Positions 8,456 to 64,000 of a stretch of 64,000 bases of DNA are shown here, one piece after another. Made by a program: the position numbers and the translations under genes. Source of the DNA: Octopus vulgaris (Eukaryota); the NCBI GenBank assembly GCA_951406725.2, contig OX597826.1, positions 24,800,001 through 24,864,000 on the forward strand, in the 5' to 3' direction. Each line of letters begins with the position of its first letter. Position 1 is the stretch's first letter. The notes under the pieces were generated by a model that was given only the letters and a program-made list of their open reading frames with translations, ran no database searches and was not told where the DNA came from.

Positions 8456-10232
8456 TAAATCATCTCATTTACATGGATGATTTAAAACTCTTTGCAAAAA
8501 ATCACCAACAACTCAAGGGCTTACTAACGATTGTCAAACAATTCAGTGACGACATCAGAATGCAATTTGGCCTCGATAAATGTTCAAAAGCTACCTTTAT
8601 CAAGGGAAAAAATGACAGAAACATCTTACGGTAACCTTGACCAGCAGAATGTCATAAAAGAATTAGACCCAGCGGAGAGCTACAAGTACCTAGGGGTAAT
8701 TGAAGGGGACGGAATAAGGCATTCAGAAATGAAGGAAAGAATCAGGAGAGAATGTTATCGAAGAGTGAGAGCAATACTCAAGACAGAGCTGAATGCGAGA
8801 AACAGGATCGAAGCGATCAATGCATTAGCCATACCAGTCGTGACTTACAGTCCCAATATCGTTAACTGGTCAATTACTGAAATATGTCAGCTTGACAGAA
8901 AAATACGAAAACTGTTGACAATGCATAAAATGCACCACCCTAAGGCAGATACAGAACGACTTTATCTGCCAAGAAAAGAGGGAGGCCGTGGTCTTTTACA
9001 ACTGGCAATAACAATGAAGATTGCTACAATTGGCCTAGACACCTACCTGAAAAAGTCTGAGGACTGGATGTTAAAACTTGTCTTAAAACATGAAAACAAG
9101 AAAGCATCATACTCAGTAACAAAACAGGCAAAGGAATATCTAAGTGAATTCCGAATACAACAAATTTCGGAATTAGAGATAGACATACAAGAAGCAAGCA
9201 CAGAAAAAGCTAAGCGCATGAAACCCGTGCAAAAACTGCGGCCTTAGATATTCTGAATGATAAATGGCAAGAAAAACCTCTCTATGGCAAATACCCAAAG
9301 AGAGCGAATAATGCAGATATTGACAAAGCCCTGACCCACCAATTGCTAATGGCCTCTGGCTTAAAATCTGAAACAGGGGTTTGTCATAGCAGCTCAAGAT
9401 CAATGCCTACCAACAAGAAACTACCAGGCCAACATATTAAAGAACGGCAGTAGCCCAACATGTCGTGTATGTCAACAACAAAATGAAACCATTGATCATG
9501 TTGTCTCCAAGTGCAGTCTTCTAGCGCCAGGCATGATAGAGCTGCACAATATATTCACTGGGTAATTTGCAAAAACCTGGATTTGACCCATGAAAAAATC
9601 TGGTGGGAACACAAACCACCTCCAGTGCATGAAAATGACCACATCTCACTCCTCTGGAACGTCACCATTCAAACTGACAGAAAGATAGATGCAAATAGGC
9701 CAGACATCATATTGAAAGACTTCAGACAAAGAACATGCCTCCACATTGATATGACTGTCCCAATCGATATAAACGTATCTGTCAAGACCTACCAAAAACT
9801 GAGCAAATATAAAGATCTTGAAATAGAAATCAGCAAAAGGTGGAACCTGAAGACTAAAACAATACCTGTTGTCATAGGTGCCCTGGGAATGATAGCGAAA
9901 GGGGCTGATTGCTACCTAACTCAGATACCAGGAAACCCCAAAATGGCAGAAATTCAAAAGATAGTGCTCATGGGAACTGCTCATATCCTACGCAAAATAC
10001 TTTCTATGTAATCTCAAGGTTTAAAACAAACAATTTTTATTTTATTTATTTTTTTAATTTTATTTATTTATTTTTTATTTATTTATTAGACATTCACTAG
10101 TACAACACCCCCCCCAATATATGGCACACTAGGCATAACAACAACGTGAACTTCCAACCTGTTGTTTCTTGAGGTCTCTGGGTGAGACTTGGAGCCAACT
10201 TGTACAAATATAAAGCAAAAGTCAAACATAGA
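8452..10232 (+). mobile_element. 5'-truncated, frameshifted R4/Dong-clade non-LTR retrotransposon (RT, CCHC, restriction-like endonuclease)
   Basis: INHLIYMDDLKLFAKN, YKYLG, LYLPRKEGGRGL, CRVCQQQNETIDHVVSKC (9461), RHD, NRPDII, KYKDL; stop at 10011; (TAA)n on both sides, the known Dong target. Confidence 0.92.
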
Positions 10233-21677: not shown

Positions 21678-21721
<44 letters not shown>

Positions 21722-21852
21722 TGCGTATATAGCAAGACGTTTGAAAATTTTTCGGCATTATTTATTCACCATTACACATGTTTCATAGGAATTAAAGAGA
21801 ATCTTGAATTTTAACCCTACCTCTATTATATATATGTGTGTGTATGTGTGTG

Positions 21853-21901
<49 letters not shown>

Positions 21902-22029
21902 ACACACATACACACACATATATATAATAGAGGTAGGGTTAAAATTCAAGATTCTCTTTAATTCCTATGAAACATGTGTAATGGTGAATAAATAATGCCG
22001 AAAAAATTTCAAACGTCTTGCTATATACG

Positions 22030-22062
<33 letters not shown>
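21678..22062. repeat. Fold-back palindrome centred on (TA)n; arms carry a 5'-truncated hammerhead
   Basis: 21718-21855 is a near-perfect reverse complement of 21899-22035. Confidence 0.9.
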
Positions 22063-22082
<20 letters not shown>

Positions 22083-23856: not shown

Positions 23857-23906
23857 TTTGTTAGTGAACAGGTCGCGGATTTTAGCGACGAAAATATTTT
23901 GACAAA
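23857..23906 (+). ncRNA. Type I hammerhead-like motif, G3-C8 core variant
   Basis: tttgtta-GTGAACA-G-gtcgc(ggatttta)gcgac-GAAAA-TA-TTT-tgacaaa; 7-bp stem I, 5-bp stem II; second copy at 34801. Confidence 0.6.
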
Positions 23907-34800: not shown

Positions 34801-34851
34801 TTTGTCAGTGAACAGGTCGCGGTCTCAAAGCGACGAAAATATGTTGAAAAA
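34801..34851 (+). ncRNA. Second G3-C8 hammerhead-like copy with degenerate 3' side
   Basis: tttgtca-GTGAACA-G-gtcgc(ggtctcaaa)gcgac-GAAAATATGT-tgaaaaa; element 34801-34975 is homologous to 23857-24047. Confidence 0.5.
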
Positions 34852-35174: not shown

Positions 35175-35212
35175 AAAAAGGAGATGTGGAACACGAGTTG
35201 TGATATATAAAA

Positions 35213-35555
35213 AAAGGAAATGAAGAAAATGCTGACAAAATAATTTAAGTAAGGGAGAGTGTATTTAATTAGGTGAAAGTTCTTTTTACCGGTTGCGCAT
35301 TTGTTATGCTTATCAAAAGATATTTTTTTAAGAGAGATAGAGTTCCTTTCTGATAGATTTTTTTTCTCTTATATGTGTTCTCATATATATTTCTCACATA
35401 TAAGAGAAAAAATCTATCAGAAAGGAACTCTATCTCTCTTAAAAAATATCTTTTGATAAGCATAACAAATGCGCAACCGGTAAAAAGAACTTTCACCTAA
35501 TTAAATACACTCTCCCTTACTTAAATTATTTTGTCAGCATTTTCTTCATTTCCTT

Positions 35556-35556
<1 letters not shown>
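35213..35556. repeat. Fold-back palindrome (~163-bp arms, 17-nt spacer) with a degenerate U3-A8 hammerhead in each arm
   Basis: Arms 35213-35377 and 35395-35556; plus motif 35449-35488 tt-TTGATAA-gcat(aacaa)atgc-GCAAC-CG-GTA-aa. Confidence 0.9.
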
Positions 35557-35587
<31 letters not shown>

Positions 35588-36062
35588 GTATTGGTATCTA
35601 GAAGACCCAAGGAGTGGCAGGTAACGCTAAATAAGTTCTATGGACTGACAGTTCTTCGTTCAATAGTGATACGAGTGAAGAGTCTAATGTAGGTCTTGTA
35701 TTAGCATGCATATATATATTAGACAAAATGTGATAACAAAGTCAAGACTGTGAGTAGTTTTCAGGACATTTATAAGGAAAAATATATAGATATAGTCTTA
35801 CAGCTGTTTCTGGGATATTATGGATATCCCTGATGAAGGGATATCCATAATAACATCCACTGACCAGCACCTCGGGCCAGTGACTTCTACTATAGTCCCA
35901 GACTGAATGATGAAGGGATAGCCATAATATATATAATATATATATATAAAACACTTACTGTAAATAAAATCAAGGGTACGTAGCGTTCCGTTAATTAATA
36001 AATGGAAAATCATATTTTTTTAAATATATGAACACCTAACGGCCAAATGGATCCTGGCAGAG

Positions 36063-36400: not shown

Positions 36401-36549
36401 ATAATTATTCTTCTGAGCCTATATGTATATTTATATTTATATATATATAATTAATCAATATAGGGTGGCAAAAAATTTTGTAGAATTTTTTTGCCACCAG
36501 CGGCCTAGTGGGAAAAAATTAAATAGTCATAGACCATTTATAAGTTCAA

Positions 36550-36617: not shown

Positions 36618-36664
<47 letters not shown>

Positions 36665-36911
36665 TAATAATAAGGGTTTTTTGCAACAAGTTGCTTAAGC
36701 CACATACCGAAAATATTAGAAATAACAGTCAAAGGACTACTATTTCCTTTTACTACAAAAATAAGTCTCCACAGACAATATTTGTGACTCACCCTTATTA
36801 TTATAATTATATAAATGTTTACCGAATATGGTCCTTTTCCATACCGAAATACTACTAGGTGAAATGTGTTGATTTTATTAAATTAATTATATTTCACCCT
36901 TTATCTGTATT

Positions 36912-37350
<439 letters not shown>

Positions 37351-44265: not shown

Positions 44266-45923
44266 AGCCTACAATTCCAGTCTGTTATATATTTTGAGTA
44301 TTGTTATCACTAGCGATATCAAAATATAACTTTGTATTTTGTATTTTATGTGTAGATGTATATATATAGATGTACATGTAATATGTACACATATATATAT
44401 ACACATGTAGTATCATGGGCAAAAAAAATGTTTAACTTCTTGCCTAGTGCGAGCCCACAGCAATATCATATCCTAGTGCGAGCCCACAGCAATATCATAT
44501 TTCATTCAAATTTTACACATGCCTTACTTAGGGAGTGTCATCGGCAAAAAGAATTTTAACTTTTTGCCTAGGGCGAGCCCACAGCAATATCATATCTTCT
44601 CCACTACGATTCCCTAAAACTTGAGAACTACACAACCAATTTCATTCAAATTTTACATATGCCTTACTTAGGGTCCATGTAGTTTCATGGGCAAAAAAAA
44701 TGTTCAACTTCTTGCCTAGAGCGATCCCATAGCAATATCATATCTTCTCCACTATTTCAGTATTACTTGTTAAAAGTGAGACAAAAATATTTCTCTATTT
44801 TATGTCAGATGCTTTCACTTTAACAATAAAAATAATAATAACAATTGAATTATATGTAGTAAGTAATAATTAAAATCAAACTAAAGTATAATATAATCGT
44901 AACATACAAAAATAAAAATAGCAATTGGTATAAAATTGCATCAATGATTTGAACTTGAATAAGTGGTTTTACATGAATGGGAATAAATTAAAAATAAAAT
45001 TAGCGTGCAGAAATGGAATAGTCCAGATGCATAATAAAAAATCAAATTAAAGAAAAGACTATTGTCTATAAAGTATACAATGTAGAGAAAAAAGAAGAGC
45101 TAACAATTCCAGTCTGTTATATATTTTGAGTATTGTTATCACTAGCGATATCAAGATATAACTTTGTATTTTGCATTTTATGTGTAGATGTATATATATA
45201 TATAGATGTACATGTAATATGTACACACATATATACACATATATACATGCACTAGCACTATGACCCGGCAACAACGGGTCTTTAATGCTAGTAAATATAT
45301 AAACATCATATAAAAATATATTGTACGCATAAGATCCACTCGACGTTCCATAAGAAATTTAGAAATAAAAATTGCAATAAAAGTTAGAGGTAATAATAAC
45401 AATTGAATTAAATATAGTAAATATAGTAAGTAGTAATTAAATATATTTTATTTTATTAAAATGGTAATTAAATCGTAATATAACAATTAAAAGAAAAATA
45501 GCAATTAGTATAAAATGTATCAAGGACTTGAACTCGAATATGTGGCTTTGCATGAATGGGAGAAATTAAAAGAGGAAAAATTTAATTGAGTGCAGAAGTC
45601 CAGTTGAAGCTGTGCGCATACCATTTACTATAGCTGCTAGATTGAATTATATGCTTATAAAGTAGCATTCAGTATCTATGAGAATTTTTGGGAGTACGTA
45701 ATATCTGGTCTTTCGCATGTAGCAGGTATGTAATTGTGCATTTGTTTTCGTGTACTATGTGTTGTGTTATTGTGCTTCTTATTTGAACCTGTGAGTTGCT
45801 GTTTAATTGTTGATTGTTAATTTTTATCGTTAAACGTTATTGTTACACGGTTTTTTTTTTTTTTTTTTCTCTCTGTGTTGAGACAGACAAGGAAGAAGTG
45901 GGCTGCCCCTCCCTAAGGGAGAG

Positions 45924-47216
45924 ATGGCTAGACGAAGTATGTTCGAAAGTGTGTCAGATTTATCAGCTTCTGAAGAAGAATTTGAAAAGGCGATAAAGAA
46001 AATGGACAAGCAATTAGGCAACGCATACGCAGGAGCGACAAGAACGGAGGAAAGAGAAATAGACTTGGCCAAGTGGCCAAGCTACCAGGCATTTATTAAA
46101 AAGGTCGGCGGTGAAGTAGAGTTGTCACCGCCACCAAAACGAAGAGAGTGGCATGAACGAAGGACCATCACGTACCGGGTTTATGCAAATGGAAAAAAGA
46201 AAATAGAAGTCGTCGGTATGGAAACAATAGAAGAAGTATTAAAAAGAACGGAAGAAGACATAATATTCTTGGCAAGAGGTATACATTTCGGTACCGTGGT
46301 GGTACAATTCAAGAATGAAAGTGTGGCGAGGAAAATGGCAACGAGAACGGTGAAGACAGAAAAGGTGTTCCTTCTGCCCTCATAACTGGGTAGAAAAACT
46401 ACTCGGATCAGGGTGGAGGGGATACCTCCTAATGTTGACGGAGAGTGGATAGTGGCAGCCGTAATCAGTGGATGTGAGGAAGAAGTTGACATCCTCCATG
46501 CTACAGTGAAAGATGAAGGCTGGAAGGGTGCAGTTTTGGAAATAAACGTGCAAGCAGAGGCTGAAATATTGGAACAATTGACTGAGAATATCAGAATGGG
46601 AAGTGTTATCATGAGAGTGTGGGTGGAGGGCAGAGCTCCACGTTGCTACAAGTGTGGCCTGAAAGGTCACATAAGAGCTAACTTCCCTCCCCCATCAAAG
46701 GAAATTGGTGCGGAACCTCAAAGAGAGGTAGTGGCCAACGAGGAAGAGCAGAAATCAATGGAGGAAGACACAACGGAAGAGGAGGAGGTACAAAAGGAGT
46801 GGGAAGAAGGCAGAAGAAGGAGGAAGAGAAGAAGGAAAAAAAATAGTGCTGAACCCCAATCCACCCCAACACTACCCGCACCCTCTGAGACCCACCCTTC
46901 CCCACCAACAAGAAAACAAAAAAAAGAAGGAGCAAACAGACAAGATACCGCAAAAAAACCTAGGCCCAATTTTCTAGGTATTTCGACGAAAAAAGACGTA
47001 AAAGAAATATTGAAAGACTACCACTGGTGTGACAAGGACAGTGATAGGTACGCTGTAATCTCGGAAGAACGTATAGAAGAATTCGTAGAAAAATATAATA
47101 GGAAAAACTATAAAGTGTTTAGATTTGAAATAGATGACGAGATGATAACGGAAATGGAAAAGAGATTTGCGATGAAAATAGAGCACAATGTGTATTACAT
47201 TCAGGATAAAGTATGA
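45924..47216 (+). pseudogene. gag/ORF1-like nucleic-acid-binding protein (~430 aa; RRM-like region plus zinc knuckle) with one in-frame stop
   Basis: ORFs 45924-46385 and 46413-47216 share a frame; TAA at 46383 where the paralog has Tyr; CYKCGLKGHIRANF = CX2CX4HX4(C>F); acidic and basic C-terminal tail. Confidence 0.75.
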
Positions 47217-47400: not shown

Positions 47401-47482
47401 CATCCTGACGAGGGGAGTGTCAATTTTAAATATATGATATGTTTCATATTAATTGGTGCATCTCCGAAACGGCTCGTAGATG
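47401..47482 (+). ncRNA. Type I hammerhead ribozyme, canonical core
   Basis: catc-CTGACGA-gggga...tctcc-GAAACG-gct-CGTA-gatg. Confidence 0.8.
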
Positions 47483-47864: not shown

Positions 47865-47923
<59 letters not shown>

Positions 47924-48206
47924 CAACAATTGAGGGTAAAATTAATTAATTATTAATTAATTTCACCAAGTGTTCAGTATGCAAAGGGACCATTTAAGGC
48001 GAATTCAAATTATTACAATATATAAAAGGGCTTAGTAAAATAAATTACTTTGCCGCATACTGAACTCATTAGAAATAGCAGCTAAAAAACTTTTTTAAAA
48101 ACCATTTCTAATACTTAAAGAAAATCTCTCTCATATAGTGTTTGGTCAACTCAACTCACGAAAGTTTGGGGGTAAAGACATCAAAAAATCAAATGCAAAG
48201 GTTATT

Positions 48207-48258
48207 TGAGAACGTACGTTTCAAGATTAGTCATCACAACACTTCTATCATCAGCTCA
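48207..48258 (-). ncRNA. Type I hammerhead, left palindrome arm
   Basis: Mirror of 48385-48436. Confidence 0.65.
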
Positions 48259-48384
48259 GAAACTCCTTGGTTTGGATTTGAAAACACTGAAAGTGAGAGC
48301 ATACTCTTTCGGCCTCTCATCGATGAGAGGCCGAAAGAGTATGCTCTCACTTTCAGTGTTTTCAAATCCAAACCAAGGAGTTTC

Positions 48385-48436
48385 TGAGCTGATGATAGAA
48401 GTGTTGTGATGACTAATCTTGAAACGTACGTTCTCA
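48385..48436 (+). ncRNA. Type I hammerhead, right palindrome arm
   Basis: tgag-CTGATGA-taga...tctt-GAAAC-GTAC-GTT-ctca; palindromic loop III; imperfect stem II. Confidence 0.65.
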
Positions 48437-48617
48437 AATAACCTTTGCATTTGATTTTTTGATGTCTTTACCCCAAACTTTCGTGAGTTGAGTTGACCAA
48501 ACACTATATGAGAGAGATTTTCTTTAAGTATTAGAAATGGTTTTTAAAAAAGTTTTTTAGCTGCTATTTCTAATGAGTTCAGTATGCGGCAAAGTAATTT
48601 ATTTTACTAAGCCCTTT

Positions 48618-48673
<56 letters not shown>

Positions 48674-51326: not shown

Positions 51327-51386
51327 TTACCGTATTGGTCTAATTTCGGAGTTAATTCATAAGAATTTTCTCCTCTTCAGCGGCAA
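51327..51386 (-). ncRNA. Type I hammerhead with AUA cleavage triplet
   Basis: Minus: ttgccg-CTGAAGA-ggag...ctcc-GAAATT-agacc-AATA-cggtaa; all stems pair. Confidence 0.8.
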
Positions 51387-51644: not shown

Positions 51645-54600
51645 TCTTGTTTCAGCTCAAAGCTGCGGCCATGCTGATGCACCGCCGTTTTGTGCTACAC
51701 TGTTATTACGAAGAGCCTCCTCTAATATGTGGCACTTGGTGAAGAATGGAGTTTGATATAGCTACTCTCATTTGCACCTCTTGCCGTGAGGTAGGTTTAT
51801 CTGGGACTCTCAATAGGAAGATGTCCATCTTTGATTTAAAAACCGCTACATCTATTTTGTGCAAGTTCCTCAAACTCTTTGGGAGAATATTAAAAAGCTG
51901 TGGGCCCTTGAAACCCAGACTGTTGCAGTAGCTGGTCCTGAAGCGTGATGGCATTGCTGGGATCTTTGGCACTATGCAGTGTCGTCCCGTTCTAGCATTG
52001 GTGTAGCTCACAATGCCAAAATTTGGCACAATTCCTTCCAGGATCTTCCATACATATATTACTGCATACCTCTCCCGTCTTCTCTCCAGGGAGTAGATTC
52101 TTAGCTGTTTCAACCTTTCCCAGTAGCTGAGCTGTTGCAAAGAGACGATCTTCTTTGTGAATCTTCTCTGGATTGCTTCAAGGTCCGCTGTTAATTTCAC
52201 ACTGGTGGGTGACCATAGCTGTGAGCAGTAATACAGGCGGCTGAGGACGAATGTCCGCCAGAGGACCATCATGGTTTCCTTATCTCTGGTTCTGAATGTT
52301 CTTAGGATTTCACCCAGCCAGTCGTCTGCACTTTGTCGCCATCCTGGTAATGTGCACTTGGAAAGAGGTATCATCACTCATGTCGATATCCAGATCCCTC
52401 ACAGACTTAGGCTCTGGGATTGAAATTCCCTGTGAACCGGTGTACCCTGTAAGTTTAATATTCAGTTTTGGATGCTGGTAGCGCAGGGCCTGGAATTTTT
52501 CAGCATTAAACTGCATATTATTATCCTCAGCCCATCTGTAGATTGAGTCCAACTCCTGCTGCAGGTGTGCAACATCGCTGGGGTTCTGTATTTTCTGCGA
52601 GACTTCCGTATCGTCTGCATAGCTTGCCAGAGTGGCTATCCGGGCATTTGAGGGCAAATCTGAGAGGGCCACTATAAAAAGCAGTGGTCCCAAGACAGTA
52701 CCCTGTGGAACACCGCTCACTATTTGTGTGTTCATAGAGGTGGCTCCATTAACCACTACTGCCCGACTCCTATCTTTCAGGAAGTCATGTAACCACACTC
52801 CAAGTTTTCCAGCTATGCCGAGGTCACGCAGTTTGTGGCATATCATACCATGATCAACCTTGTCAAAAGTTTTTGCAAAATCAAGGTGGATTACGTCCAC
52901 ATTTGATTTGTAACTGCCACAACACCCAGTCATAATGTTGTAAGAGCTGGGTCAGGCAGCTCCTACTTGGTCGAAAACCATGCTGGGTATCACCTAGCAA
53001 GTTATTTTCCTCTAAGAATGCGATTAGTTTCTTTCTGACTATCCGTTCCATGACTTTGCTGATGTGTGAAGCCAGAGAGATAGGCCTATAGTTTTTGGCC
53101 TCTGCTCTACTTCCCCCTTTATGTATTGGGCATATTATTCCCTCCTTCAGCTTGCTTGGAAGTTTGCCATTTATAAGAAAGCCCTGGAAGAGAATCTTGA
53201 GGGGTTTTGCCAGGGCATGCTTACACGCTTTGAGGAGGATTGCTGGGAAACCATCTGGACCAGCAGCTGAGTTTGTGTGCACTTCATCAATGGCTAGTAG
53301 GACATCTCCTTCGCTAATGTCAATATATTCTATTGTAACCGCCTCGCTGGTTATAGGTAAGGCGGCAAAGAAGTCCACTGGTTCGTTCACTTGTCTGTGT
53401 TCCAACGGGATGGTAAAGACACTTTTGAACTGGTCATTCAGCATCTCACTGATCTTAGTTGGGCTGTCTGTGAGGGAGCCATCCTTTTGGAGGAGGGTCC
53501 TATCTTGTAGTGTACTGAGACTGTTTCTTTCGCGTAATGAAAGAAGGCTTTGGGTTTGATTTAATGTTTTTTATAACCCAGGCTTCTTTGTCTGCTTTCT
53601 CCTTCATATAGGATTGTTGCAGCCTTTTTTCGATCTCCATCAGTGTTGTTTTTAGGCGGGACGTTTCGCTACTTTTGGGATGCTGGTTGAGACGATTTGC
53701 AACCTTCATCCGTCGTCTCATGAGGATCTTCCTGTCTCTTGGAATCTTGCTCCTATTTGTTTTGGCCTTGTGCTCTGGGACATATTTCTGGCATACGGCT
53801 TGCACAGAAGACATGAAACATTTTAGTTTCACGTCAATGTCTGGTGTGGAGAGACATTCCAGTCAGTCCTCTCTGAGGATCTCTTTTTGGATCGATTTCC
53901 AATCTGCTTTGTGGAAGTTCAGATTGGAGAGATTTCGGGTGCTTCCTTTAGGCTGTATGTCTCTGGTTACTTTCGGCCCAAACATAGACAGCTCTATTAT
54001 GTTGTGATCGGAAACTAATGTCGGTGTCAGTTTCACATCATGAATGATGTCCATATTGTTCGTGAAGCAGAGATCCAGAATGTTATTCGCCCTAGTTAGT
54101 TTAAGTACAACTTGCTCCATGAATAAGGCGTTGGTGAGGTTGAGCAGGGACTCCACCTATACTTGCTTGCAATGATTCATTCCTGAGAGTATGAGTATTG
54201 ACGGTGGGGAAGTTGAAATCACCAATAAGAAATATGGTCACGTGGTGTTCCAGATTCATGAGGATTTCTTTAATTCTTGTGAGGCAATCTTCAAACTTGC
54301 CTATGTGATTTGGAGCATCCGGTGGGCAATATGTATTGCATATGACAATATTATGTTGTCTTATGTATACAATTAAAGTGTCACATACCGAATTTGAGTA
54401 TGTCATTAAGACCTGGGGTGTGAGGTCATCTCGGATGTATACAGCAACTCCACCATGGCTCCATTCCCATCTGTCTGTTCGCAGTATGGCATAGTTTGGT
54501 ATGTGTACTTCTGCGTCCTCTATATCAGGGCTGAGGTGAGTTTACACGAGTGCTATGCATAGGGCTTGATTGCATGCAGTAAGATCTCTCAGGAAAGAAA

Positions 54601-55272
54601 TTTTGTTTCTATTTTGATGCAATAGGCCCCAAATATTTAGCAAAAGTATTGGGGTGACGGCTGTGCAGGCGTTAGGGGAGGCCATCACGTGTCTGTTGAC
54701 AGTGGTGGTCTTGCATAGTGGTGGGCAGGGTTCCTTCTCTGTGCTTGGTGTATCCAGGTTAGCTGCTGGACAATCCTTTGCGCCATGCACAAAAAGACTC
54801 TTGCTCAGTTGCTGAGTTGCGCAGAACATCTGAGGAGCACACTTCTTTTCTGATTGCTTTCCTGGGAGACATTTCTTGTCTTCCCTCAGGAAAGCTCTTC
54901 TCTTTGAGTCCCCTGAAGCTCTGGCGGGGTGTCAGGTGGGCGAACCGGCAGTTTTTGCCGTCCTCCCCATGCCAACATTTGCCCGCAGGTTGAATTTACA
55001 GGTTCTTCGGTGCCTTCCAGATTTCTTCTTTCCTGAAGTATACTGGGTGGCATTGGATCCTCCATGGGGTTCTCTGCTGTTTGTGTGGTGGGTTGGGGTT
55101 TCAGCTTTGGTTGTTTTGCCTTTTCCTTCTTTTCCCTCCTTATTTTTGCTTTCGGTCCTTCCTATTTTCTTCTGTTTTTCTAATTTCTCATTTCTTTGTA
55201 GGACCACTGGTACAGGGGGGATTCCAGTTTCTGCTCCCTTTACTCCCCTATCCTTCACTACCTGGTCGTTCA
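51645..55272 (-). mobile_element. Near-full-length decayed CR1-group LINE (ORF1 remnant, APE endonuclease, RT)
   Basis: APE: GDFNFP, NNILDLCFTN, SDHNII; RT: NYRPISL, QHGFR, DFAKTFDKVDH, GVPQGTVLGPLLF, YADD; C-terminal YSLERRRER; many frameshifts. Confidence 0.93.
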
Positions 55273-57305: not shown

Positions 57306-57371
57306 GTTTATTTTAAAAATATAAATATACGAAAGAATGGAGCTGAACGACGAATTAACAAAATTCCTTTA

Positions 57372-57454
57372 TTTTCGACATATGTTTCGAAGGCTGCATA
57401 TTCGTAATTGCGAAGGAAGAAGGAGTACATTATGCCGCTTTCTCATCAGGAAAA
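57372..57454 (-). ncRNA. Type I hammerhead, canonical core, GUC site
   Basis: Minus: ttttc-CTGATGA-gaaagc...gccttc-GAAAC-ATAT-GTC-gaaaa. Confidence 0.85.
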
Positions 57455-57557
57455 GCAAGGAACTTATGTCAACATCAAAATGCACAAAAACTTTTAGATG
57501 ATTGCTCACACGGAGCCCATAGCGATAATGAGTGTCTCTTTAAAATATTCCTTTATA

Positions 57558-58606: not shown

Positions 58607-59249
58607 AAATATTTAAAAATTGAGGGAGATAAATTAATATTAATTTTAATATCAATTTAAAACCAGTAGTCCAGCATTCAAAAAATCTGAGGAGTCAGAG
58701 AAAATTCAAATATATGTGTATATTGGCAGGGCTGGCCAGAATGCTTAGTCTTACTGATCACATCGGGAATAAAATTTCAAATGTCTTGGTTCCGGCGCGC
58801 TGAGAGACTCCTGAAGCGAAGGGCTGCAGTGAATAATTCACTGCGGGTAGTGCTTACAACTAGGGAACGTATTTATTTAAATATTTAAAAATTGAGGGAG
58901 ATAAATTAATATTAATTTTAATATCAATTGTAGTTTGATCGTTGATGATCTTTTTCTAGCATTCTCGCCGGCTACCTAGCAGGCCAGCCCTGCCAATATA
59001 CACATATATTTGAATTTTCTCTGACTCCTCAGATTTTTCGAATGCTGGACTACTGGTTTTAAATTGATATTAAAATTAATATTAATTTATCTCCCTCAAT
59101 TTTTAAATATTTAAATAAATACGTTCCCTAGTTGTAAGCACTACCCGCAGTGAATTATTCACTGCAGCCCTTCGCTTCAGGAGTCTCTCAGCGCGCCGGA
59201 ACCAAGACATTTGAAATTTTATTCCCGATGTAATCAGTAAGACTAAGCA
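58607..59249. repeat. Permuted inverted duplication
   Basis: 58607-58737 and 58742-58929 are reverse complements of the two overlapping halves of 58982-59249. Confidence 0.9.
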
Positions 59250-59308
59250 CGTGTCTGTCTTGACACAGAGAGCTGGGGTTAGTCTTGCGGTTTGCATCCC
59301 GAGGACCG

Positions 59309-59384
59309 AATGTACTGATGAAGTCACGGACACTTGAATTATGCAAGTAATTCTTTTGTTAAGACCGAAACCGAGGTATGCATT
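59309..59384 (+). ncRNA. Type I hammerhead, canonical core
   Basis: aatgta-CTGATGA-agtc...gacc-GAAAC-CGAG-GTA-tgcatt. Confidence 0.8.
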
Positions 59385-59502
59385 TAAGTCTGTTATTTAT
59401 ATAATTTTTCATATGTCATGCCCGCGAAAGTTGGTTCTGGTGTTCGCTGAATTCTTCCTCTAGAGAATTTCCCTTGTAGTTATATATGTATATATATATA
59501 TG

Positions 59503-61544: not shown

Positions 61545-61812
61545 CACACGCACACATACATACATAATATAAATATCACACAAATACACCTAGCATATAT
61601 ATACACACATACAATACACACATACAGCATGTAAGTAATATACATACACAATATATGCATGCAATATACATACGCAATACATACATGTATGTATATATGT
61701 ATGTATTGCGTATGTAGGAATTTTAAATAGATACTCATTATCGCTATGGGCTCCGTGTGAGCAATCATCTAAAAGTTTTTTGTGCATTTTGATGTTGACA
61801 TAAGTTCCTTGC

Positions 61813-61895
61813 TTTTCCTGGTGAGAAAGCGGCATAGTGTACTCCTTCTTCCTTCGCAATTAGGAATATGCAGCCTTCGAAACATATGTCGAAAA
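61813..61895 (+). ncRNA. Hammerhead copy with mutated core (CUGGUGA)
   Basis: Inverted copy of 57372-57454. Confidence 0.6.
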
Positions 61896-61961
61896 TAAAG
61901 GAATTTTGTTAATTCGTCGTTCAGCTCCATTCTTTCATATATTTATATTTTTAAAATAAAC

Positions 61962-64000
<2,039 letters not shown>

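What the first reader, a model, noticed from the sequence alone, without database searches (positions are those of the whole stretch)
48017..48625. 610-bp spacerless palindrome whose centre is a hammerhead core
Seen: the right arm starts c|GATGA-gaggcc-GAAAGAG-tatg-CTCTC-actttc, an HHR with 4-bp stem III, tiny stem II and CUC site, missing stem I and one core base at the symmetry axis. A second complete HHR follows ~60 nt later, and both are mirrored. With 21930, 34801 and 35830, four inversion points fall at HHR cores or stems. Inference: ribozyme-linked self-priming or template switching generates fold-back insertions. Long perfect palindromes can also be assembly artefacts.
Basis: partly seen in the sequence, partly recalled or inferred. 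Interest (0 to 1): 0.75.

Follow-up and report, generated by a model that had tools for sequence, protein, structure and literature searches.

The report
Head-to-head Penelope retroelement stub insertion
The 609-base mirror-image sequence is there, with an extra 96-base tail on one arm and TA repeats on both sides, and it is likely the ordinary back-to-back leftover of a Penelope-like jumping gene rather than the product of a new ribozyme-driven process.

Summary
The palindrome is confirmed: axis 48321|48322, arms 305/304 nt, no substitutions, one homopolymer indel. It belongs to the same high-copy repeat (family contigs cross the boundary; a diverged relative at 36.7-36.9 kb has the same layout), and the whole unit sits in (TA)n. 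Head-to-head 5'-truncated copies, a one-sided tail, (TA)n targets and hammerheads on opposite strands are the published architecture of Penelope-like element (PLE) insertions; self-priming at palindromic junctions was proposed in 2013. The 'four inversions at hammerheads' claim fails: 21930 is not an axis (the axis is 21876, in (TA)n) and the 35830 core word is made by the junction and has no GAAA. Only 2 of 10 inversion junctions in the window lie within 15 nt of a hammerhead, no more than rough geometry predicts. The axis lies 27 nt upstream of the cut site, so cleavage did not set it. No read or contig was seen to span the axis, so the exact zero spacer is unconfirmed. The scan found the same kind of object before in other genomes (e1-9995956, e1-9983008). 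Ordinary; the long structured tail is a small extra.

The parts
47868..47919 (.). (TA)n target microsatellite, left side
   Evidence: sequence
47921..48016 (-). one-sided 3' tail (~96 nt) of the left copy; ends in a 15-bp hairpin followed by CCCT and ~14 nt
   Evidence: family contig depth continuous across 48016|48017 and X1 record 3 bridges it; homologous to the tail of the 36.7-36.9 kb insertion, 0 of 500 shuffles; fold z -4.15
48017..48321 (-). left arm: 5'-truncated copy of the element's 3' end, sense on the minus strand
48211..48258 (-). mirror copy of hammerhead motif 2
48289..48321 (-). mirror copy of truncated hammerhead motif 1
48321..48322 (.). symmetry axis, C|G; the C is probably native to the source, giving a 2-nt self-complementary overlap
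   Evidence: loose end at 48322 in 7 X1 contigs
48322..48354 (+). truncated hammerhead motif 1: core from G5, 6-nt stem II region, GAAA, 4-bp stem III, CUC site (cut 48348|48349), 3' strand of stem I
   Evidence: sequence; upstream bases that pair with stem I seen in non-palindromic contigs; not called by Rfam
48385..48436 (+). hammerhead motif 2, type I, palindromic stem/loop III, GUU triplet, weak stem II
   Evidence: does not fold as a hammerhead monomer in MFE prediction, z 1.15
48322..48625 (+). right arm: 5'-truncated copy ending at the proximal end site (CCCT plus ~10 nt), no tail
48626..48662 (.). (TA)n target microsatellite, right side
   Evidence: sequence

Best explanation
This is a 609-base palindrome with a 96-base tail on one arm, set in a TA repeat, and it is likely a single insertion of a Penelope-like retroelement in which two short copies of the element's 3' end were joined head to head. 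Inferred course: the element's GIY-YIG endonuclease nicks (TA)n; reverse transcription starts at the distal internal start site (the arm with the tail) and runs about 400 nt; the new DNA likely folds back on itself (or anneals to a second cDNA primed from the other strand) at the CG overlap; copying back ends at the proximal start site, which leaves the second arm without the tail. The hammerheads are there because PLE terminal repeats carry them a few hundred bases from the end; they are likely passengers. Shown: symmetry, one-sided tail, (TA)n flanks, high copy number, non-palindromic continuation past the axis in other copies. Inferred: PLE identity of this family (no ORF is linked) and every enzymatic step. 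Between the two fine routes I lean to fold-back (about 55:45), because junction offsets in the window are short (0, 5, 12, 17, 43 nt).
For: Tail on one arm only, continuous with the family (depth 1.0-1.5 million across 47995-48036 in X1, record 3 bridges the boundary; 3434 X1 and 613 X2 contigs laid). A diverged relative at 36660-36910 has the same arm end and tail, head to head, in (TA)n (scores 74 and 55, 0 of 500 shuffles each). Three more inversions in the window (34.7, 35.2, 36.55 kb) show a one-sided extension and microsatellite flanks. A frameshifted C-terminal GIY-YIG ORF with CxxC and CxH motifs at 63300-64000 (-), followed by a 3' region ending in (TA)n, shows that TA-targeting PLEs are in this genome. 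Literature: inverted 5'-truncated copy, tail on one end, (TA)n targets (PMC8557442); head-to-head palindromic junctions read as self-priming (PMC3846280); min-hammerheads 100-700 bp apart on opposite strands (PMC4209133); both strands primed, two internal start sites make the tail, hammerhead mutants insert normally (PMC11167929).
Against: No reverse transcriptase or endonuclease frame is linked to this family (no frame over ~40 codons in 47920-48321; no genome held). The tail is ~96 nt, against 30-40 bp in the papers read. A zero spacer is hard to get from fold-back with only a 2-nt overlap. No read or contig was seen across the axis (depth 0 at 48331-48335 in X1 and X2; raw runs X23 and X24 gave 0 and 16 reads, none there). 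Rfam does not call the hammerheads.
Confidence: 0.8

Rival explanations
1. The folded hammerhead sets the inversion point: reverse transcriptase stalls at the ribozyme core, or its stems give the pairing, so fold-backs cluster at hammerheads.
For: The axis is at core position G5, and the 34797 junction is 9 nt from a hammerhead. Stronger self-complementary words lie within 15 nt upstream of the axis in the source (loose end) yet were not used, which suggests a hard stop there. Summed contig depth falls about ninefold between 48275-88 and 48303-16, across the mirrored cut site, which could mean that many copies start near the cut.
Against: 2 of the 4 cited cases fail. 8 of 10 junctions are 89 to about 2000 nt from any hammerhead; P(2 or more of 10) is 0.15-0.98 under rough geometric nulls. 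The 57.5/61.7 kb inverted pair carries whole hammerheads about 90 nt from its inner ends. The arm keeps 27 nt upstream of the cut, so the template was not cut there. The depth fall is confounded by the edge of the matching stretch. Hammerhead mutants insert normally in vitro (PMC11167929).
Confidence: 0.11
2. The palindrome, or its perfect centre, is a sequencing or assembly artefact (fold-back read, or polishing that made a small loop symmetric).
For: Arms differ only by a homopolymer indel; no contig or read was seen across the axis.
Against: A mirrored read would also mirror the tail; here the right arm stops at the same end site as the diverged 36.7 kb relative and enters (TA)n. Several other inversions in the window have the same biological asymmetry with spacers of 5-43 nt. 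Contigs drop rare variants, and the runs may be other individuals.
Confidence: 0.06
3. A fold-back or MITE-like DNA element that moves as the whole palindrome.
For: Long inverted arms, TA flanks and very high copy number.
Against: Depth just beyond the axis is about 1% or less of arm depth and other copies continue with non-palindromic sequence; the ends are unequal by ~96 nt; hammerhead motifs point to an RNA stage.
Confidence: 0.03

Closest known systems
Complex inverted insertion units of endonuclease-positive Penelope-like elements (Craig et al. 2021, PMC8557442, Fig. 2 legend and text; Arkhipova et al. 2013, PMC3846280)
   Same: Inverted 5'-truncated copy joined at the 5' end, head to head; palindrome at the junction; tail on one end only; AT-rich or (TA)n target; solo terminal repeats without ORF.
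   Different: Both copies here are truncated at the same base (zero spacer, against a 15-bp overlap and 18- or 38-bp palindromes in A. vaga); tail ~96 nt instead of 30-40 bp; no ORF linked.
Hydra clade of C-terminal-endonuclease PLEs (PMC8557442, section 11)
   Same: [quoted passage not shown]
   Different: That ORF is another family; nothing ties the 48-kb family to it. Two short motifs of the 48-kb arm were absent from the supplement text as served, whose long runs were cut.
Minimal type I hammerheads of metazoan PLE terminal repeats (Cervera and de la Pena 2014, PMC4209133)
   Same: Short stem I, palindromic stem/loop III, solo motifs from truncated PLEs, pairs 100-700 bp apart on opposite strands.
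   Different: Motif 1 has a 4-bp stem III and almost no stem II and may lack U4 natively; two unlike motifs lie 67 nt apart in one repeat.
Non-LTR retrozymes (bioRxiv 10.64898/2026.07.22.740005, introduction read)
   Same: Non-coding, hammerhead-bearing, PLE-derived.
   Different: Retrozymes are head-to-tail tandem arrays; this is a head-to-head pair.

Membership tests
EN+ Penelope-like element insertion | RT plus GIY-YIG ORF linked to this terminal repeat | not testable with these tools
   No ORF in the stub; no genome held; two metagenome scans found no copy. A GIY-YIG-like ORF of another family lies at 63300-64000.
EN+ Penelope-like element insertion | Inverted 5'-truncated copy, head to head | tested here: met
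   Hammerhead sense points outward on both arms; other copies continue past the axis without symmetry.
EN+ Penelope-like element insertion | Tail on one end only | tested here: met
   47921-48016 is family sequence on the left arm only; ~96 nt, longer than the 30-40 bp in print.
EN+ Penelope-like element insertion | AT-rich or (TA)n target | tested here: met
   (TA)n on both sides.
EN+ Penelope-like element insertion | Type I hammerhead motif in the terminal repeat | tested here: met
   Motif 2 passes a core plus stem I/III descriptor; stem II weak; Rfam negative; activity untested.
Hydra clade PLE | DKT and RWK motifs, CxCX5C linker, no CCHH, in the element's own ORF | not testable with these tools
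   No ORF for this family; only the unrelated 63.3-64 kb fragment shows Hydra-type endonuclease motifs.
Non-LTR retrozyme | Head-to-tail tandem units each with a hammerhead | tested here: not met
   Self-comparison shows only the inverted pair at this locus; other loci of the family not seen.
MITE or fold-back DNA transposon | Copies share both termini and the internal palindrome | tested here: not met
   Unequal ends; depth past the axis about 1% or less of arm depth; non-palindromic continuation.

The most novel reading that the evidence does not exclude
In this genome's PLE families the folded hammerhead, not its cleavage, stops reverse transcriptase and fixes where the new DNA snaps back, so the ribozyme acts as a structural switch that shapes inverted insertions; and a conserved pair of hairpins around the two start sites sets an unusually long ~100-nt tail.
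Probability: 0.11. Interest if true: 0.5.

Novelty: new member of a known kind. Interest (0 to 1): 0.17.

Why it matters
As it stands it is one more PLE insertion stub of published architecture. What hammerheads do in EN+ PLEs is still open (PMC8557442 says so; PMC11167929 finds cleavage dispensable in vitro), and this genome's very numerous stubs would allow a clean census of inversion points against the ribozyme. The ~100-nt tails with a conserved stem that shows a compensatory change would give a second natural example of structured internal start sites.

Tried and rejected
Whole-genome test: no genome held. Rfam: no hammerhead at gathering score; at E<=10 only hairpin-driven microRNA-type matches below gathering. 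Two exact-pattern scans of metagenome contigs: 0 matches each. Raw-read runs X23 and X24, chosen for sharing X1's species label, gave 0 and 16 reads in 1934 million letters each: no test of the axis. Homologue search for the 63.3-kb ORF among longer proteins: 0 of 400 candidates passed; Pfam 0 families for 4 proteins; Atlas look-alikes at 0.94-0.96, one set with GIY-YIG in 11% of members, a lead only. Lunse et al. on small PLE hammerheads was not held; known to me only from a reference list and recall. MFE folding does not give the hammerhead fold for motifs 1 and 2 (z 0.08 and 1.15). A heterodimer of motifs 1 and 2 through stem III exchange was considered and dropped: their stem III strands are not complementary (sequence). 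The fold of 21775-21830 showed no terminal hairpin (z 1.31), and the 36.55 kb tail does not align to the 48 kb tail above chance (47 of 500 shuffles). Paper searches showed no listing devoted to inversion points at hammerheads; most subscription papers are not held, so this is weak.

Full report
Setting. The window is eukaryotic repeat-rich DNA full of (TA)n, (CA)n and dispersed repeats. No genome is held for it. It looks like an invertebrate, perhaps cephalopod, genome; that is recall, not a test.

Observation. The palindrome is real in the assembly. Its axis lies between 48321 and 48322; the arms are 48017-48321 and 48322-48625, with 304 of 304 aligned bases identical and one gap in a C-run. 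The right arm begins at core position G5 of a hammerhead-like motif (GAAA at 48333-36, 4-bp stem III, cut site 48348|48349). A second motif has its core at 48389, a 4-bp stem I, a palindromic stem/loop III, a GUU triplet and a weak stem II. Rfam calls neither, and MFE folding does not give the ribozyme fold. A relaxed descriptor of my own (core words recalled from the consensus) finds 14 motif starts, 12 distinct sites, in the window against a mean of 1.6 in 30 shuffles, so such motifs are truly enriched here.

I laid four public runs on 47925-48335, that is the left flank, the left arm and 14 bases past the axis (4 of the 24 runs listed). In the two contig runs, 3434 (X1) and 613 (X2) records were laid: this is a very abundant repeat. 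Depth is continuous across 48016|48017, and 1 of the 16 listed pieces (X1 record 3) bridges that place with 31 or more letters on each side; 4058 pieces were not shown. So the 'flank' 47921-48016 is part of the element: a ~96-nt tail on the left arm only. The unit then has (TA)n on both sides. A diverged relative at 36660-36910 has the same arm end and the same tail (local scores 55 and 74; 0 of 500 shuffles reach either), also head to head and in (TA)n. The inversions at 34.7, 35.2 and 36.55 kb also carry one-sided extensions of about 55, 35 and 100 nt and microsatellite flanks.

Upstream of the axis. Seven X1 contigs leave the reference at 48322 with a common 15-letter continuation (table 7; 108 other loose ends not shown). 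Read most simply, only one C lies between these bases and G5. Then the C at the axis is native, the axis is a 2-nt CG overlap, and motif 1 lacks U4 in those copies and would be inactive. The tool's end trimming could hide a letter, so this is tentative. Depth at 48317-30 is about 1% of arm depth and at 48331-35 zero in both contig runs, so this axis is not shared across the family. It also means no record was seen to span the axis. Contigs drop rare variants, and the raw-read runs gave 0 and 16 reads with none there, so the zero spacer is neither confirmed nor refuted.

The enrichment claim. The palindrome near 21930 has its axis at 21876|21877 in (TA)n and no core word in its unique arm. At 35830 the core word arises across a hairpin junction, the sister copy at 35908 differs upstream, and no GAAA follows. 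The 34797 junction is 9 nt from a degenerate G3-C8 hammerhead. Of 10 inversion junctions that I curated by hand (I left out the 47637 hairpin and pure microsatellite palindromes), 2 lie within 15 nt of a hammerhead, counting called and homologous motifs; the others are 89 to 1987 nt away. Under rough nulls of uniform truncation over the last 300-1000 nt, 2 or more of 10 has probability 0.15-0.98. The null is crude and n is small: no enrichment is shown, and a weak one is not excluded. The arm keeps 27 nt upstream of the cut site, so a cleaved 5' end did not set the axis. One result points the other way: summed depth falls about ninefold from 48275-88 to 48303-16 in both contig runs, across the mirrored cut site; the nearby end of matching sequence confounds this.

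Comparison with print. Craig et al. 2021 (PMC8557442; passages, section 11, and a term search of the supplement as served, with long runs cut) describe an inverted 5'-truncated copy next to the 5' end, a 30-40-bp tail often on one end only, and (TA)n targets, and define the Hydra clade with hammerheads and (TA)n insertion. Arkhipova et al. 2013 (PMC3846280; passages and Discussion) report palindromes at head-to-head junctions and read them as self-priming. Cervera and de la Pena 2014 (PMC4209133; parts 1-2 of 4) report minimal hammerheads in PLE repeats, including pairs 100-700 bp apart on opposite strands. Frangieh et al. 2024 (PMC11167929; main text) show a PLE protein nicking and extending both strands, starting at two internal sites that bound the tail, with hammerhead mutants inserting normally. 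The retrozyme preprint (part 1 of 5) and a ribozyme review (PMC6765202, passages) gave background only. The window itself has a broken C-terminal GIY-YIG frame with Hydra-type motifs at 63300-64000 (Atlas lead; no hit), of another family. Two earlier notes of this scan on other genomes reached the same reading; I did not test them and do not count them as support.

Mechanism. Likely: nick in (TA)n, reverse transcription from the distal start site through about 400 nt, fold-back (or annealing to a second cDNA primed from the other strand) at the CG overlap, and termination at the proximal start site, which leaves a tail on one arm. Short junction offsets in the window (0, 5, 12, 17, 43 nt; two others are about 52 and 105) favour fold-back slightly; the in vitro two-strand priming favours the second route. 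A zero loop fits neither neatly and may come from later repair or from polishing. All enzymatic steps are inferred from the papers above. The 3' region is structured: an 11-bp stem encloses the proximal end site and a 15-bp hairpin precedes the distal one (z -5.62); similar terminal hairpins occur in three of four other ends folded, the 21.8-kb one being the miss.

Verdict. A new member of a known kind: a PLE-type head-to-head stub (0.80); ribozyme-directed inversion 0.11; artefact 0.06; DNA fold-back element 0.03. Interest 0.17. Supplements of the 2013, 2014 and 2024 papers were not read and could hold longer tails or junction maps.

Noticed in passing
window 47921-48070 (-), 36660-36912, 36448-36510 (-), 58607-58665 (-): Long tails of several families end in a strong hairpin followed by CCCT and 12-14 nt before (TA)n (z -4.15, -5.65, -2.64, -3.51). 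In the 48-kb family an 11-bp stem encloses the proximal end site (z -5.62 for 150 nt); the 36.7-kb relative keeps the two strands of that stem with an A-U to G-C change (alignments).
   Followed up: partly
window 63300-64000 (-), 62150-62290: Frameshifted C-terminal GIY-YIG endonuclease ORF with Hydra-clade-type CxxC and CxH motifs; a degenerate hammerhead-like motif at 62285 (-) about 130 nt before (TA)n.
   Followed up: partly
window 23864-23899 and 34807-34850: Hammerhead variant with the core swap G3-C8, in two copies of one family; the 34.8-kb copy is a head-to-head insertion with a ~55-nt one-sided tail.
   Followed up: partly
window 57320-57545 and 61725-61955: Inverted hammerhead-bearing terminal repeats (216 of 222 aligned bases identical) with 3' ends outward into (TA)n, enclosing 4.2 kb that includes a nested multi-inversion unit at 58607-59480.
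   Followed up: partly
window 21690-22063: 374-nt palindrome centred on a (TA)n run that mirrors its own microsatellite pattern, with repeat 3' ends facing the centre; possibly fold-back at (TA)n or an assembly effect.
   Followed up: no
window 35203-35566: Head-to-head insertion with 17-nt spacer and a ~35-nt one-sided tail, no hammerhead in the arms; arms differ only by homopolymer indels.
   Followed up: partly
window 47405-47478 and 51333-51380 (-): Further well-formed type I hammerhead motifs with long loop II.
   Followed up: no
window 45882-47216, 51706-54931, 8528-10011: Broken non-LTR retrotransposon-like frames (gag-like zinc-knuckle region; AP-endonuclease/RT pieces; a restriction-like endonuclease end); named from recall, Pfam gave no hit for the three pieces tested.
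   Followed up: no
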